64,000 nt of DNA from a candidate division WOR-3 bacterium (GTDB lineage Bacteria > Hydrothermota > Tepidihabitantia > SM23-42). The position numbers and the translations under genes are program-made. How positions within the stretch are numbered: position 1 is the stretch's first letter; each line of letters starts with the position of its first letter. Where the stretch lies: NCBI GenBank assembly GCA_020353055.1, contig CP070686.1, positions 638,965 to 702,964 on the forward strand, read 5' to 3'. Below the pieces are notes generated by a model. The model saw only the letters and a program-made list of their open reading frames with translations. It had not been told where the DNA came from and searched no databases. Shown piece by piece: positions 15,335 to 20,054 of the stretch.

Positions 15335-16336
15335 TTACATTTTCCATTTGTCCTCTCCGCGATGTCTCTTACTTCCGCATACTTGTCTGTAGATATTGAT
15401 TATCTTGTCGGCAACGTTATTGATTTCAAGATACTTGATATTCTCACGACCATTTGTACGCTTACCATACTCGAGAGATAATTGGAGCTTTTTTGCCAAA
15501 TCTTCTTTGTCAAAAGAAGCAATATAACAACCTTCCGTATTACCTAATACCTCCCTGACATCACCGACATCGGTAGATACAATCGGTAAATTGCATGCCA
15601 TTGCCTCTTTGATCACATTGGGTGAACCCTCCTGCAACGAAGTGCACAGCAGGACATCTGCCATGTTCATATATGCGTTTACTTGCTGTGCATGAATACC
15701 AAACGGAACCACCAGTTCGACGTCTGGGTATTTCTGCTTCAGTATCTGTACGGCACTCACCGCAAGGCGAAAATTCTTGCGGGGATCGTCTGGGTCGCCC
15801 AGAAAGAGAATAGTCTTATTACGCTTTCCAGCATATAGTTGAGAAACAGCTTTGTCTTGCATTGGTCTGAATAACTCAAAATCTACACCGTTTGGTACAA
15901 CGTACACATGATCGGCATTTATGAGTTCTTTCATTCTGCTTGATTTAACTATTACCGCCTCTGCAAAATTGACGAGCAACGTCGAGAAAAGAATGTTAAA
16001 GTATCCGACAATTCTCTGACCACCTCTGCTGTTGAGAACCCCGAAGAGGTCATTACCCATGAAAGATACTACTACTGGAACTTTTCTTTGTAGAACACCC
16101 ACCCATCCACAATAGCTATAATGTGCATGAACAATATCATATCTCCGATTGAGAAGTCTTTTCCATAGCCTAACGACTCCTATGATGTAGTTGAACGTAT
16201 TCTCAGTAGCACGTAAATCCAAGATATCGACGGCAACACCTTTGCGGCCAAGTGATTTGATCTGAGATACGATGAACGGCTTCAGATATGGCTTTTCGCT
16301 CGTTGGCCAAGAACTGACAATATGTAGCACCTTCAT
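15335..16336 (-). CDS. Glycosyltransferase family 4
   Basis: C-terminal GT-B motif LLCTSLQEGSPNVIKEAMACNLPIVSTDVGD (EX7E). N-terminus MKVLHIVSSW. Confidence 0.8.
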   Translation of the reverse strand: MKVLHIVSSWPTSEKPYLKPFIVSQIKSLGRKGVAVDILDLRATENTFNYIIGVVRLWKRLLNRRYDIVHAHYSYCGWVGVLQRKVPVVVSFMGNDLFGVLNSRGGQRIVGYFNILFSTLLVNFAEAVIVKSSRMKELINADHVYVVPNGVDFELFRPMQDKAVSQLYAGKRNKTILFLGDPDDPRKNFRLAVSAVQILKQKYPDVELVVPFGIHAQQVNAYMNMADVLLCTSLQEGSPNVIKEAMACNLPIVSTDVGDVREVLGNTEGCYIASFDKEDLAKKLQLSLEYGKRTNGRENIKYLEINNVADKIINIYRQVCGSKRHRGEDKWKM

Positions 16337-18230: not shown

Positions 18231-20054
18231 TCATCTGAATTTTTGTTCTGCCAATGCAAGCCGGAGCAGCAGGCCTATGTTGACCGCCTCTTTGTGCATG
18301 GTGAAAAAAGTGGTTTTTGAGAGAGCTTCGACTTTTTCAATGTAATTTCTTACTCGATTGGTATCATAAAAAGAACAACCCAATATAGAGGACCGTACAT
18401 ATTCGCGATAGTCTGCCATTTTGCGATCAAAATATTTCGGCCTCCTGAAACTTGGGGGGTTCCCATACTGGATAACAGGCACCTTTTTATGGAATCCGAT
18501 ATTAAGCACCATTCTCAGCATCCTAAACGCCTTCTGCATATGGTACGGGTGAAAAACCTTCAGATGAGTAGTATCGACCGGGATATCCTGGGCAAACCGG
18601 TAGTTCCGCAGAATTTTGAAACTCAATCGGCGTAATTCCCGCGTTCTTGGATGGTACTTACTGATCTTTCTTACGAGCACGCTGTCGTTGAAGGGGAATA
18701 CATGAAAATCTCCAATGCCGATAAAACTCAGAGGGTAGAATGCAGCATTAGCCAGAACGTAAGTACGAAAGCGCTCTACGTAAGTTTCGGCATAGGTGGG
18801 GTGGCCAAGGAAATCATTTAACCTTGCTGCGATATCCTGTGCGAAGTCGATTCGACGACCGACCATACCAGGATCTAACATATCTGCTATTTCCTTTTTG
18901 TAGCCGGCGTAGAGAACACTATTGATGAGATGCGGCTTCATCTGTTGTGACAGCGGATGATATGCATAAGGTAGAAAACCCTCTCTTAAAACATACGAAT
19001 ACTTCCTACTGAGATAAAGACTTTCACCATCCAGCAACTCACCCCCCACACCGGTCAGATGTATGTCGGCACCCCTGTCTTGCTTCCACTTGAGATGATA
19101 GTAATTATAATGAGTCGCTAGTTTCGTTGGGTTGTCACACAATTCATAATATTTGATAATACCGTCCGTATACTTTTCCTCATGCTTATTCTCTAATTCA
19201 TGAAGCCGTGCGTTGCCGTAATTTGATACCAACTCTCTTGCCTTTAAGTAATCAGATGTATCGGACCCTGCCGTCTCAGTCATCAGGGCCGACTTGTCAG
19301 GCCATGCGAGAAAAATCATTCTGGAATCCATCCCACCGGTCAGACTGAGGCTATACTTGAGTCTTGCGGAGTGTATCCTTTCGATCGCTCGATTGAATTC
19401 CGCATGTATCTCATCAACAATATCTTCTTGTTGATAACGCAGATCACCACATTCGGGAAAGGATGCATATGTGCGGACATTTATCTCACCATTTTGACAG
19501 GTCAAGACCGATGCCGGCGGGAGACAACTAATACCGCTTATTATCGTTTTGCTCGACAAGTTCATACCCAAATGAACGAATTCATTAATGACACTGTGAT
19601 CCCAAGAAAATTTCATTAATCTTGACGATAACCTGAGGCTCGTGGAAAACAACAGTGTTCCGTCGTACATTACGTAGTAAAGCGGCATCAAGGCCATGAA
19701 GTCGCTGAAAATATGCAAAACATTTTTCTCGTGTATGACACCCACATATGCTCCATTAACGAAGTGTCCGGGAATAGTGAGCGCTCTACGCTCTAACAGT
19801 GAACGCAAAACTCCGTACCCGCGATCAATTACATCATCGAGCGTATAATCCTTGAGCATGAATATACCATTCAGCAAGAGATCCTTGTTATGAGCAGAAA
19901 AGGCCGTCGCAACTGCACCGCCACTATTATTCTTGTTGTAGGTAATGAAATGCCTGCTGACCTGTCTGCAATGAAAGCCGGCGTCAGCGAGTAGTTTTCT
20001 GTAACGCAACGCCCCTGTGCCAAATGCACCAAATAATAATCTTGTAGTGTTCAT
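18231..20054 (-). CDS. Asparagine-synthetase-family protein lacking an N-terminal Cys (amide-forming synthetase-like)
   Basis: PP-loop LSLTGGMDSRM. N-terminus MNTTRLLFGAFGTGA has no Cys2. About 607 aa. Paralogous to the two upstream AsnB-family genes. Confidence 0.65.
   Translation of the reverse strand: MNTTRLLFGAFGTGALRYRKLLADAGFHCRQVSRHFITYNKNNSGGAVATAFSAHNKDLLLNGIFMLKDYTLDDVIDRGYGVLRSLLERRALTIPGHFVNGAYVGVIHEKNVLHIFSDFMALMPLYYVMYDGTLLFSTSLRLSSRLMKFSWDHSVINEFVHLGMNLSSKTIISGISCLPPASVLTCQNGEINVRTYASFPECGDLRYQQEDIVDEIHAEFNRAIERIHSARLKYSLSLTGGMDSRMIFLAWPDKSALMTETAGSDTSDYLKARELVSNYGNARLHELENKHEEKYTDGIIKYYELCDNPTKLATHYNYYHLKWKQDRGADIHLTGVGGELLDGESLYLSRKYSYVLREGFLPYAYHPLSQQMKPHLINSVLYAGYKKEIADMLDPGMVGRRIDFAQDIAARLNDFLGHPTYAETYVERFRTYVLANAAFYPLSFIGIGDFHVFPFNDSVLVRKISKYHPRTRELRRLSFKILRNYRFAQDIPVDTTHLKVFHPYHMQKAFRMLRMVLNIGFHKKVPVIQYGNPPSFRRPKYFDRKMADYREYVRSSILGCSFYDTNRVRNYIEKVEALSKTTFFTMHKEAVNIGLLLRLALAEQKFR

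What the first reader, a model, noticed from the sequence alone, without database searches (positions are those of the whole stretch)
16333..20054. Two tandem asparagine-synthetase paralogs have lost the Cys2 glutaminase nucleophile (one reads MPGIVG instead of MCGxVG) next to an intact AsnB at 9249-11081
The intact copy begins M-C-G-L-V-G, with the N-terminal Cys that hydrolyses glutamine. The copy at 16333-18204 keeps the same N-terminal framework but has Pro in place of Cys (MPGIVGIIG). The copy at 18231-20054 has no Cys near its N-terminus at all. Both retain PP-loop ATP-binding motifs (TGGFDT, TGGMDS). Cys-less AsnB homologues are known as ATP-dependent amide or lactam synthetases (beta-lactam synthetase and carbapenem synthetase types) that use free ammonia or an amine substrate. 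In a glycan locus, three such enzymes suggest several distinct amide bonds, for example uronamide formation plus amino-acid amidation of uronic acids.
Basis: partly seen in the sequence, partly recalled or inferred. Interest (0 to 1): 0.7.

Follow-up and report, generated by a model that had tools for sequence, protein, structure and literature searches.

The report
Two cysteine-less asparagine-synthetase-like glycan enzymes
Two adjacent genes in a bacterial sugar-coat locus encode old, uncharacterised relatives of asparagine synthetase that cannot use glutamine but keep the ATP-binding half, so they probably build unusual amide bonds on a surface sugar.

Summary

They are not recent copies of the neighbouring AsnB that lost Cys. 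They belong to two old, distinct Cys-less families: A-like has up to 950 clusters (50% identity) at E<=1e-30, and B has about 21 known relatives. Glutamine-binding residues are gone. The ATP-binding loop persists in a derived form, TGGxDxR, where canonical enzymes have SGGxDS. Other synthetase-domain residues are also conserved.

A-like and B genes recur together in uncultured WOR-3, Cloacimonadota and Acidobacteriota. Their partners are a CE4 deacetylase, a GT4 glycosyltransferase, a FemAB/VimA-like transferase, DUF354, a UDP-sugar dehydrogenase and often a Cys-bearing AsnB. This resembles the Wbp/Vim pathway, which makes the amino-acid-decorated uronamide that anchors type IX secretion cargo. 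A cargo-type protein lies beside the locus.

Best reading: glutamine-independent, ATP-dependent amide-bond-forming enzymes that decorate a diamino-uronic acid. Substrates are unknown. I rate it a new variant of a known kind, of moderate interest.

The parts
16333..18189 (-). Gene A: 618-aa Cys-less asparagine-synthetase-like protein (NCBI JSV53_03030, annotated 'hypothetical protein' with a start 16 codons too far downstream)
   Evidence: ORF. Pfam Asn_synthase 3.7e-10 and GATase_7 5e-10. Profile-profile match to canonical AsnB, probability 99.96% over residues 1-370. Orthologues listed.
18172..18189 (-). N-terminus MPGIVG of gene A: Pro replaces the Cys nucleophile
   Evidence: MPG in 9 and MSG in 2 of the 11 orthologues with an intact N-terminus. 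Across 156 A-like proteins this position is Ala, Pro, Ser or another residue, never Cys.
17539..18189 (-). Gene A N-terminal Ntn-type (glutaminase-like) domain, catalytically dead
   Evidence: The AlphaFold model is confident here, with pLDDT about 75-90. R49 aligns to a gap, N74 becomes D73, G75 is kept as G74, and D98 is not conserved.
17386..17406 (-). Gene A PP-loop TGGFDTR (derived form of SGGxDS)
   Evidence: T262, G263, G264, D266 and R268 are 87-100% conserved in 156 A-like proteins.
17092..17112 (-). Gene A motif TGICGSE, equivalent to S346-G-E348-G-S-D351-E352 of E. coli AsnB
   Evidence: G361 and G364 are 99-100% conserved, and E366 is 85% identical (87% acidic). Position 348 is Ile and position 351 is Ser.
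18231..20054 (-). Gene B: 607-aa highly divergent Cys-less asparagine-synthetase-fold protein (NCBI JSV53_03035, 'hypothetical protein')
19320..19340 (-). Gene B PP-loop TGGMDSR
   Evidence: S237, T239, G240, G241, D243 and R245 are invariant in 21 family members.
19038..19055 (-). Gene B motif TGVGGE, equivalent to SGEGSDE of AsnB
   Evidence: G335, G337, G338 and E339 are invariant. The D351 position is deleted.
20056..21060 (-). CE4 polysaccharide-deacetylase-like gene directly upstream of B (VimE-like role)
   Evidence: Pfam Polysacc_deac_1, 30.2 bits. Orthologues accompany B or A-like genes in L002, L003, L005, L006, L007, L008, L009 and L010.
21047..22396 (-). PaaK/F390-synthetase-like (CapK-like) adenylate-forming enzyme
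   Evidence: NCBIfam hits at 5e-29 to 4e-27, all far below curated cut-offs. Syntenic in L003.
15335..16336 (-). GT4 glycosyltransferase whose start overlaps the stop of gene A by 4 nt
   Evidence: Orthologue directly downstream of the A or A-like gene in L003, L005, L006, L007, L008 and L009.
14524..15294 (-). 256-aa protein with no Pfam hit, probably a divergent CE4-like deacetylase
   Evidence: No Pfam hit. A five-sequence profile gives weak hits, and 8 of the 12 are CE4 deacetylases, the best being PgdA 2c1g at E 0.015. These align the RHDVD and GHEIGYH motifs. Syntenic in L002, L003, L005 and L010.
13450..14457 (-). FemAB-family / Acetyltransf_6 protein (VimA-like)
   Evidence: Pfam FemAB 2.2e-21. 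TIGR03019 pepcterm_femAB 2.7e-19, below cut-off. PMC7468200 reports that VimA matches the same family.
12257..13477 (-). UDP-GlcNAc 2-epimerase-type gene
   Evidence: Orthologue carries Pfam Epimerase_2 in L003. 62% identical to that orthologue.
11083..12204 (-). DUF354 protein, a recurrent cassette member
   Evidence: Pfam DUF354 5.6e-12. Also present in L003, L005, L007, L009 and L017.
9249..11081 (-). Cys-bearing AsnB (MCGLVG), candidate WbpS-like uronamide-forming amidotransferase
   Evidence: TIGR01536 scores 434.7 bits, above its cut-off of 267. TIGR03108 eps_aminotran_1 1.8e-108, below cut-off. Glutaminase residues are intact.
24652..25983 (-). UDP-sugar 6-dehydrogenase, the source of the uronic-acid carboxylate
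   Evidence: Three Pfam UDPG_MGDP_dh domains. Homologues 48-61% identical in L003, L007, L008 and L009.
3148..5472 (-). PKD-domain protein with a type IX secretion C-terminal sorting domain, flanking the locus
   Evidence: Pfam Por_Secre_tail 29.2 bits (cut-off 27) and PKD_4 2.2e-16.

Best explanation

Shown:
- Their N-terminal Ntn-type domain keeps the fold but has lost the nucleophile and the glutamine-binding residues, so they cannot draw ammonia from glutamine.
- Their C-terminal PP-loop domain is under strong constraint.

Inferred:
- Each enzyme still adenylates a carboxylate with ATP and lets an amine attack the acyl-adenylate, forming an amide bond.
- They work in the cytoplasm. No signal peptide is evident by eye in the adjacent CE4 proteins.
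- They act within a conserved Wbp/Vim-like cassette: UDP-sugar dehydrogenase, Wbp-type oxidase, aminotransferase and acetyltransferase, CE4 deacetylases, a FemAB/VimA-like aminoacyl transferase, a GT4, and a Cys-bearing WbpS-like AsnB.
- That cassette most likely builds an amino-acid-decorated 2,3-diamino-uronic acid residue.
- Each of A and B most likely installs one extra amide on that residue. It either couples the C-6 carboxylate to an amine or amino acid other than ammonia, or couples an activated acid to a sugar amine freed by the adjacent deacetylase.
- The Cys-bearing AsnB would make the plain uronamide.

The substrates are unknown.

For: 2. Dead glutaminase. In A, Cys1 is Pro, R49 aligns to a gap, N74 is Asp and D98 is not conserved. 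None of 156 A-like proteins has Cys at position 2. The first 95 residues of B are unconserved.

3. Constrained synthetase domain.
- The PP-loop TGGxDxR is invariant in the 12 close A orthologues and all 21 B relatives, and matches a strict pattern in 122 of 147 wider representatives.
- The [ST]G pair, equivalent to AsnB S346-G347, is kept, together with an acidic residue (E366 in A, E339 in B).
- In the A-like family an RKYFGxE motif, a P-x-L-D motif, and the basic positions R369, R498 and R523 are 90-99% conserved.
- B has 77 invariant columns, most of them in the synthetase half.

4. Context.
- Of the 9 B-bearing loci with flanks that I examined, 8 have an A or A-like gene within 10 kb. The ninth is L001, where A-like P0013 appears to lie elsewhere on the same 95,903-bp contig (inferred from matching contig length and source).
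- 8 of the 9 have the CE4 orthologue.
- A-like genes without B keep the CE4, GT4, FemAB and DUF354 neighbours (L005, L017).

5. A Cys-bearing AsnB sits in the same cassette in the window and in L003, L005, L006 and L017, so A and B are probably not redundant with ammonia-type amidation.

6. Known precedent. The Wbp/Vim pathway uses WbpS (an AsnB homologue), VimE (CE4) and VimA (pepcterm_femAB family) to make 2-N-seryl-3-N-acetylglucuronamide (PMC7468200). AS-like enzymes are known to transfer ammonia, hydroxylamine and hydrazine and to form lactams (PMC13060819, PMC13622209).
Against: - There is no biochemical evidence for either family, and no characterised member.
- The Mg-binding Asp351 of AsnB and beta-lactam synthetase is Ser in A and deleted in B. 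Only the neighbouring Glu is kept.
- Position 348 (Glu in AsnB, Tyr in beta-lactam and carbapenam synthetases) is Ile in A and Val in B, and elsewhere Ile/Asn/Leu or Val/Ala/Gly/Cys. The catalytic base therefore differs or is missing.
- The C-terminal ~250 residues do not align to canonical AsnB by profile methods. Equating R498 and R523 with AsnB K429 and K449 rests on spacing only.
- The A model is poor in the synthetase domain (pLDDT 25-60).
- I could not inspect model coordinates, so active-site geometry is unchecked.
- Homology of the neighbours to P. gingivalis Vim proteins was inferred through shared family models, not direct comparison.
Confidence: 0.55

Rival explanations
1. A and/or B are ammonia-dependent uronamide synthases. 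They adenylate the C-6 carboxylate of a uronic acid and use free NH3, as AsnB can do in vitro without glutamine.
For: The glutaminase site is dead while the synthetase domain is conserved. A UDP-sugar dehydrogenase is present in most of the loci examined. From general knowledge, glutamine-dependent AS enzymes also accept ammonia.
Against: A Cys-bearing AsnB of the WbpS-like type sits in the same cassette in at least five loci, which would make two further plain amidases redundant. The N-terminal domain is retained at full length with subfamily-specific conserved residues: M1, G3, G9, L10, D34, C70, D73 and G74 in the close A family. That conservation is unexplained if only free ammonia diffuses in.
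Confidence: 0.15
2. They are intramolecular cyclases of the beta-lactam synthetase or lasso-cyclase type. They close a lactam between the uronic-acid carboxylate and an amine on the same residue, either a freed 2- or 3-amine or the alpha-amine of an N-linked amino acid.
Confidence: 0.1
3. One or both are catalytically inactive pseudo-enzymes that act as scaffold or specificity subunits, for example in an A-B heteromer or in a complex with the Cys-bearing AsnB or the glycosyltransferase.
For: The Mg-binding Asp351 is lost, being Ser in A and deleted in B. The Glu/Tyr348 position is non-polar in both window proteins. A-like and B genes co-occur in 8 of 9 loci, which would fit a complex. From general knowledge, AS-family enzymes are oligomers.
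Against: The PP-loop (T-G-G-x-D-x-R) is invariant in both close families and 87-100% conserved per position across 156 A-like proteins, in families whose members are only 25-50% identical. Many polar residues in the synthetase half are also conserved. Pseudo-enzymes usually lose exactly these motifs. A-like genes occur without B (L005, L017).
Confidence: 0.12
4. They have nothing to do with the glycan and act on a peptide, for example C-terminal amidation or lasso cyclisation in RiPP (ribosomal peptide natural product) biosynthesis.
For: Many characterised AS-like enzymes act on peptides. Two radical-SAM genes lie in the window.
Against: Every locus examined for A, A-like and B genes is a glycan-biosynthesis locus with glycosyltransferases and sugar-modifying enzymes; most also have a flippase. 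Gene A overlaps the downstream GT4 by 4 nt, and B starts 1 nt after the CE4 stop. No leader-peptide-binding or protease partner genes were seen.
Confidence: 0.03

Closest known systems
Glutamine-dependent asparagine synthetase B (E. coli AsnB, PDB 1CT9; TIGR01536)
   Different: There is no Cys1, and R49, N74 and D98 are not kept. The PP-loop is TGGxDxR, not SGGLDSS. E348 is Ile in A and Val in B. D351 is Ser in A and deleted in B. TIGR01536 scores are 104.7 and 48.7 bits against a cut-off of 267.1. The C-terminal ~250 residues cannot be aligned.
Beta-lactam synthetase and carbapenam synthetase (PDB 1JGT, 1Q15)
   Different: Position 348, the catalytic Tyr in those enzymes, is Ile/Asn/Leu or Val/Ala/Gly/Cys here. 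CarA has the canonical SGGLDSS loop. The genomic context is glycan biosynthesis, not beta-lactam biosynthesis. Sequence identity is 13-14%.
WbpS / WbqG / PGN_1234 uronamide-forming amidotransferases (eps_aminotran_1, TIGR03108) within the Wbp/Vim pathway
   Same: This is an AsnB homologue working on a (di)acetamido-uronic acid in a glycan locus alongside a CE4 deacetylase (VimE), a pepcterm_femAB-family transferase (VimA) and a GT (PMC7468200). The window carries all of these gene types, plus a T9SS cargo-type protein.
   Different: Enzymes of this family keep the glutaminase Cys. The window's counterpart of WbpS is the separate gene at 9249-11081. A and B score 81 and 30 bits on TIGR03108 against a cut-off of 817. 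They are additional components with no counterpart in the published pathway.
TsnB9 hydroxyamidotransferase (PDB 7YLZ) and other natural-product AS-like enzymes (FzmA, PesC, TsrC, lasso cyclases)
   Same: TsnB9 is the best sequence-level PDB hit for both profiles, at 9.8e-12 for A and 3.3e-6 for B, and the top Foldseek hit. These enzymes show that the AS scaffold can deliver nucleophiles other than ammonia.
   Different: TsnB9 starts MCG and keeps the SGGLDSS loop. All of these act on polyketides or peptides in secondary-metabolite clusters, not on sugars.

Membership tests
Glutamine-hydrolysing asparagine synthetase (AsnB, TIGR01536; class II / Ntn amidotransferase) | N-terminal Cys nucleophile directly after the initiator Met | tested here: not met
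   A has Pro, and no upstream Met-Cys start is possible. B has no alignable nucleophile. No Cys at this position in 156 A-like proteins.
Glutamine-hydrolysing asparagine synthetase (AsnB, TIGR01536; class II / Ntn amidotransferase) | Glutamine-binding and oxyanion residues R49, N74-G75, D98 (E. coli numbering) | tested here: not met
   In A, R49 aligns to a gap, N74 is D73, only G75 is kept, and D98 is variable. In B this region does not align.
Glutamine-hydrolysing asparagine synthetase (AsnB, TIGR01536; class II / Ntn amidotransferase) | Score at or above the curated family cut-off | tested here: not met
   104.7 bits (A) and 48.7 bits (B) against 267.1. The neighbouring AsnB scores 434.7.
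Asparagine-synthetase-like superfamily (Ntn-type N-domain plus PP-loop Asn_synthase domain) | Two-domain fold | tested here: met
Asparagine-synthetase-like superfamily (Ntn-type N-domain plus PP-loop Asn_synthase domain) | PP-loop ATP pyrophosphatase motif SGGxDS | tested here: inconclusive
   Present as the conservative variant TGGxD[STG]R, invariant in both close families. Whether it binds ATP was not tested.
Beta-lactam synthetase / carbapenam synthetase | Catalytic Tyr348-Glu382 dyad and Lys443 (from the literature, cited, reference 68) | tested here: not met
   Position 348 is Ile/Asn/Leu in the A-like family and Val/Ala/Gly/Cys in B. Glu382 and Lys443 could not be mapped.
Beta-lactam synthetase / carbapenam synthetase | Location in a clavam or carbapenem biosynthetic cluster | tested here: not met
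   All loci examined are glycan-biosynthesis loci.
Lasso-peptide / macrolactam cyclases (NF033535, NF033561) | Score at or above the curated cut-off, and a precursor peptide plus leader peptidase nearby | tested here: not met
   NF033535 scores 65.7 and 34.4 bits against 525. NF033561 scores 18 and 46.3 bits against 300. No such partner genes appear in the gene tables.
WbpS-type uronamide amidotransferase (eps_aminotran_1, TIGR03108) | Curated score and an intact glutaminase domain | tested here: not met
   81.3 and 29.9 bits against 816.9, and both lack Cys. The gene at 9249-11081 scores 363.9, also below cut-off but much closer.
Wbp/Vim-like linking-sugar cassette (system-level membership of the locus) | Co-located Wbp-type enzymes, CE4 deacetylase, pepcterm_femAB-family transferase, GT, and optionally a WbpS-like AsnB | tested here: inconclusive
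   All gene types are present by Pfam or NCBIfam, and the core recurs in other loci. Family scores are below equivalog cut-offs. No direct comparison with the P. gingivalis proteins was possible.
Wbp/Vim-like linking-sugar cassette (system-level membership of the locus) | The product is an N-aminoacyl diamino-uronic acid or uronamide that anchors T9SS cargo | not testable with these tools
   The only circumstantial evidence is a Por_Secre_tail protein at 3148-5472.

The most novel reading that the evidence does not exclude
The cassette is a variant of the Wbp/Vim 'linking sugar' pathway in uncultured FCB-group and related phyla. In it, two dedicated Cys-less AS-like ligases, perhaps acting as an A-B pair, build a short amide-linked side chain in the cytoplasm on a diamino-uronic acid. 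The side chain would be a second amino acid, or an amino-acid amide at C-6. The result would be a previously unseen anchor residue to which type IX secretion cargo, such as the CTD protein at 3148-5472, is attached. If so, the A-like family (up to about 950 clusters at 50% identity) would be the first AS-like enzymes shown to make sugar-amino-acid amides, a reaction whose enzymes are unknown for most amino-acid-amidated uronic acids.
Probability: 0.15. Interest if true: 0.75.

Novelty: new variant of a known kind. Interest (0 to 1): 0.5.

Why it matters
- Amide-linked amino acids and amines on uronic acids are common in bacterial and archaeal surface glycans. To my knowledge, the enzymes that attach them are identified in very few cases, and those are ATP-grasp ligases.
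- This work defines two conserved but unnamed protein families. Databases label them 'hypothetical protein' or, wrongly, 'asparagine synthetase B (glutamine-hydrolysing)'.
- The families have a clear signature: no Cys2, and a TGGxDxR PP-loop.
- The conserved gene neighbourhood ties them to a pathway with known chemistry (Wbp/Vim).
- That makes a concrete, testable enzymology question. It also corrects a misleading functional annotation and one start codon.
- If the link to type IX secretion anchoring holds, it would extend that mechanism to uncultured phyla.

Tried and rejected
- **Upstream Met-Cys start.** Rejected for both genes by in-frame stops.
- **Recent tandem duplication of the neighbouring AsnB.** Rejected. 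Identities are 22-29%, and each gene has its own orthologous family.
- **Catalytic N-terminal Pro, as in tautomerase-type enzymes.** I considered this because MPGIVG is conserved in close orthologues and in distant P0020, P0023, P0034 and P0143. I set it aside because the wider family has Ala, Ser, Pro or unrelated N-termini at that position.
- **Single-sequence PDB searches.** Only weak hits for A, and none for B. Profiles were needed.
- **Structure of A.** The 12-sequence alignment gave a poor C-domain (pLDDT 60.5 overall), so no active-site reading was attempted.
- **AlphaFold-database fold search.** Not available.
- **Literature searches.** Searches for Cys-less AsnB homologues in glycan loci, and for AsnB-type amino-acid amidation of uronic acids, found nothing relevant. 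A search on the Methanococcus threonine-amidated mannuronic acid did not identify the enzyme family.
- **256-aa neighbour.** No Pfam hit even at E<=10. Only a weak profile link to CE4 deacetylases.
- **GTDB genome scan for B.** The pattern-based scan returned only 4 true relatives (L008-L011). L012 and L013 are A-like or canonical-like proteins, and L014 is an unrelated weak hit.

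
Full report
**Source and setting**

The window matches a 2.69-Mb contig of a candidate division WOR-3 bacterium MAG. Genes A and B correspond to JSV53_03030 and JSV53_03035, both annotated 'hypothetical protein'.

Nearly every gene from about 2.2 kb to 63.9 kb is on the minus strand and belongs to glycan biosynthesis. 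The region includes:
- many GT4 and GT2 glycosyltransferases, two Wzx-type flippases, and Wzy/PMT-type membrane proteins;
- a chain-length regulator/kinase and three UDP-GlcNAc 2-epimerase-type genes;
- a UDP-sugar dehydrogenase, three DegT aminotransferases, and GFO/IDH/MocA oxidoreductases, one of them fused to a hexapeptide acetyltransferase;
- nucleotidyltransferase and epimerase/dehydratase genes, and two radical-SAM genes.

The dehydrogenase, oxidoreductase, aminotransferase, acetyltransferase and 2-epimerase set is the gene content expected for 2,3-diacetamido-2,3-dideoxy-uronic acids (the Wbp pathway, as described in PMC7468200).

**Checking the observation**

Gene A:
- The ORF at 16333-18204 contains an ATG at 18189 that gives MPGIVGIIG.
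- Upstream there is only a TTG five codons earlier and then an in-frame TGA.
- Of the 11 orthologues with an intact N-terminus (42-61% identity), nine begin MPG(I/L)(V/A) and two begin MSGIVG.
- The ATG is therefore the real start. The NCBI model (602 aa, starting MEKYF) is 16 codons short.

Gene B:
- It starts at the ATG at 20054, one base after the upstream stop.
- An in-frame TGA lies 20 codons upstream with no start codon in between.

Neither gene can be extended to a Met-Cys N-terminus. The copy at 9249-11081 reads MCGLVG and keeps R49, N74-G75-E76 and D98.

**What the proteins are**

Sequence evidence against standard libraries is weak.
- A scores 40 bits on Pfam Asn_synthase and 40 bits on GATase_7. 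B scores 19 bits on Asn_synthase, below the cut-off.
- On NCBIfam, both fall far below every curated cut-off: AsnB, WbpS-type eps_aminotran_1, lasso cyclase and macrolactam cyclase.

Homology is nevertheless secure.
- Family profiles align to a canonical AsnB profile with 99.96% probability (A, residues 1-370) and 99.0% (B, residues 100-350). They align to each other at 99.2%.
- The AlphaFold model of B is confident (pLDDT 85.7, pTM 0.89).
- The model of A is good only in the N-domain. It still retrieves the same structures.

**They are old families, not decayed copies**

- A and B share 29% identity over 252 residues, and A shares 22% with the neighbouring AsnB.
- B has about 21 relatives (34-51% identity) and almost nothing beyond them.
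- A belongs to a large family. A profile search of 1.84 billion representatives found 950 clusters at E<=1e-30, with the top 150 all below 1e-76. That count may include some canonical AsnBs.
- Named members are all 'hypothetical protein' or automatic 'asparagine synthetase B' labels from MAGs of WOR-3, Atribacteria, Marinimicrobia and Gammaproteobacteria.
- B relatives occur in Cloacimonadota and Acidobacteriota MAGs.
- In 156 full-length A-like proteins, position 2 is Ala, Pro, Ser or part of an unrelated N-terminus, and never Cys.

**Active-site reading: glutaminase half**

- In A, Cys1 becomes Pro and R49 falls in a gap.
- N74 becomes Asp. It is invariant in the close family, and hydrophobic in many wider members.
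- G75 is the only residue kept in all 156 proteins, and D98 is not conserved.
- In B, the first ~95 residues are unconserved.
- Glutamine hydrolysis is therefore excluded.

**Active-site reading: synthetase half**

- The PP-loop survives as T-G-G-x-D-x-R. It is invariant in the 12 close A orthologues and the 21 B relatives. It matches a strict pattern in 122 of 147 wider representatives.
- Canonical relatives, including AsnB, human ASNS, TsnB9 and CarA, have S-G-G-x-D-S-[SAT]. The Thr and the trailing Arg are a shared derived signature of the Cys-less glycan-associated clade.
- The S346-G347 nucleotide-binding pair is kept as [ST]-G.
- E348 is Ile/Asn/Leu in the A-like family and Val/Ala/Gly/Cys in B.
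- D351 is Ser (Asp in some A-like subfamilies) or deleted in B. The next residue, E352, is kept as an 85-100% conserved Glu.
- Further conserved positions in the A-like family are RKYFGxE (449-455), P468/D471 (the RVPFLD motif), and the basic residues R369, R498 and R523.
- R498 and R523 lie 27 and 52 residues after the PFLD Asp. This compares with 24 and 44 residues for K429 and K449 of E. coli AsnB. The equivalence is an inference from spacing only.
- B has 77 invariant columns, most of them polar residues in the synthetase half.

This pattern argues for a working nucleotide-dependent active site. It differs in detail from both AsnB and the beta-lactam synthetases.

**Genomic context**

Gene B starts one base after the stop of a CE4 polysaccharide-deacetylase-like gene. 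A follows B after a 41-nt gap, and the stop of A overlaps the start of a GT4 gene by 4 nt. The gene order in the window is:

1. PaaK/F390-synthetase-like adenylating enzyme
2. CE4 deacetylase
3. B
4. A
5. GT4
6. a 256-aa protein
7. FemAB-like transferase
8. 2-epimerase
9. DUF354
10. Cys-bearing AsnB
11. priming sugar transferase

The same order occurs in a 56-kb metagenomic contig with 61-74% identical proteins (L003).

Looser versions recur as follows:
- Another WOR-3 genome, without B (L005).
- Metagenomic contigs L002, L006 and L007.
- Cloacimonadota (L008, L009) and Acidobacteriota (L010) genomes.
- A further A-like locus (L017).

Of the nine B-bearing loci with flanks that I examined, eight have an A or A-like gene within 10 kb and eight have the CE4 orthologue. 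In the ninth (L001), A-like protein P0013 appears to lie elsewhere on the same 95,903-bp contig. That is inferred from matching contig length and source, not confirmed directly.

The 256-aa protein has no Pfam hit. A five-sequence profile gives weak hits, and 8 of the 12 are CE4 deacetylases. These align its RHDVD and GHEIGYH motifs, so it is probably a second, divergent deacetylase.

More distant MPGIVG-type proteins (P0023, P0034) also sit in glycan loci.

**Relation to a known system**

Veith et al. (PMC7468200) showed how P. gingivalis and T. forsythia make the 'linking sugar' that anchors type IX secretion cargo. The sugar is 2-N-seryl-3-N-acetylglucuronamide in the first species and 2-N-glycyl-3-N-acetylmannuronic acid in the second. 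The enzymes are:
- Wbp enzymes;
- the putative CE4 deacetylase VimE;
- VimA, which matches the pepcterm_femAB family and determines which amino acid is added.

The glycosyltransferase VimF is also specific to that glycan. The same paper noted similar gene sets (vimA-like, deacetylase, AsnB) in exosortase loci.

The window has each of these gene types:
- The FemAB-like gene hits TIGR03019 (2.7e-19).
- The Cys-bearing AsnB hits TIGR03108 (1.8e-108).
- A CE4 and a GT4 gene are present.
- A PKD protein with a T9SS C-terminal sorting domain lies just outside the locus at 3148-5472.

A and B are inserted between the VimE-like and the VimF/VimA-like genes. They have no counterpart in the published pathway. 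These assignments rest on shared family models scoring below equivalog cut-offs. I could not compare directly with the Porphyromonas proteins.

**Mechanism proposed**

Shown:
- The glutaminase site is dead.
- The PP-loop domain is conserved.
- Both genes are embedded in a conserved glycan cassette that also carries a Cys-bearing AsnB.

Inferred:
- Each enzyme adenylates a carboxylate, and an amine other than glutamine-derived ammonia attacks it.
- The carboxylate could be the C-6 acid of the (diamino)uronic acid, with an amino acid or amine as partner.
- Alternatively, it could be a free acid or amino acid that is transferred to a sugar amine exposed by the adjacent CE4 enzyme.
- AS-like enzymes are already known to deliver hydroxylamine and hydrazine, to amidate peptide C-termini, to make nitriles and to close lactams (PMC13060819, PMC13622209). 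An unusual nucleophile is therefore within the family's known range.

Rival readings:
- Plain ammonia-dependent amidation.
- Intramolecular lactam formation.
- An inactive scaffold role.

None is excluded. The main arguments against them are the co-resident Cys-bearing AsnB, the absence of the beta-lactam-synthetase Tyr, and the conservation of the PP-loop, respectively.

**Verdict**

However:
- The genes are members of two old, uncharacterised families, not decayed paralogues.
- They are not beta-lactam or carbapenam synthetase-type enzymes.
- The proposed chemistry is unproven.
- The best available framework is a Wbp/Vim-like pathway with two extra ligases.

I rate this a new variant of a known kind, of moderate interest.

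Noticed in passing
window 18141-18189 (minus strand): The public annotation of gene A (JSV53_03030, 602 aa) starts at Met17 (MEKYF). That start removes the conserved MPGIVGIIGLDRSIRK N-terminus, which begins MPG or MSG in all 11 orthologues with an intact N-terminus. The start codon should be the ATG at 18189.
   Followed up: yes
window 9249-11081 (residues 359-365); also L003:17097-18938, L005:3738-5726, L006:17822-19759, L017:12020-13861: The 'intact' Cys-bearing AsnB of this cassette has L-D-G-Q-G-x-D-E. In a set of 24 homologues including the window protein, 21 have Glu at the E. coli E348 position, as E. coli AsnB does, within the motif T-G-E-G-x-D-E. In the cassette AsnB that Glu is Gln and the preceding Thr/Ser is Asp. 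The variant is conserved in the cassette-linked AsnB of four other loci, so this looks like a distinct subfamily, probably not a true asparagine synthetase.
   Followed up: partly
window 3148-5472 (minus strand): A 774-aa protein with a PKD domain and a type IX secretion C-terminal sorting domain (Por_Secre_tail, 29.2 bits) lies next to the glycan locus. This hints that the organism has T9SS cargo that may need a glycan anchor.
   Followed up: partly
window 14524-15294 (minus strand): A conserved 256-aa cassette protein has no Pfam hit. Its RHDVD and GHEIGYH motifs, and weak profile hits to peptidoglycan and polysaccharide deacetylases, suggest an unrecognised divergent CE4 family.
   Followed up: partly
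window 21047-22396 (minus strand): A PaaK/coenzyme-F390-synthetase-like (CapK-like) adenylate-forming enzyme has no Pfam hit and overlaps the start of the CE4 gene by 14 nt. It is a fourth potential carboxylate-activating enzyme in the same operon. It is syntenic in L003, and a CapK_C protein occurs in L001.
   Followed up: no
window 45804-46949 and 52870-53976 (minus strand): Two radical-SAM genes, one with a SPASM domain, are embedded among the glycosyltransferase and sugar-modifying genes. Their role in the glycan locus is unexplained.
   Followed up: no
window 34668-36293, 46946-48385, 42803-44272, 38911-40788, 44318-45658: The region has two Wzx-type flippases, one Wzy-type polymerase and two PMT_2-type membrane proteins, along with three UDP-GlcNAc 2-epimerase-type genes. 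The 60-kb region is probably two or more glycan loci placed end to end.
   Followed up: no
L007:13889-17768: In one Cloacimonadota-like contig, the stretch between the B gene and the A-like gene carries an acyl carrier protein, a KASIII-type ketosynthase and two short-chain dehydrogenases. This suggests an N-acyl (for example hydroxyacyl) decoration made alongside the cassette.
   Followed up: no
P0020, P0023, P0034, P0143 (L015:2762-4567, L016:3229-5001): Proteins only 24-30% identical to gene A also start MPGIVG and carry [ST]GGxD[ST]R. The Pro-for-Cys N-terminus is therefore retained across deep divergence in some subfamilies, while others have Ala or Ser. The reason for preferring Pro is unexplained.
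   Followed up: partly
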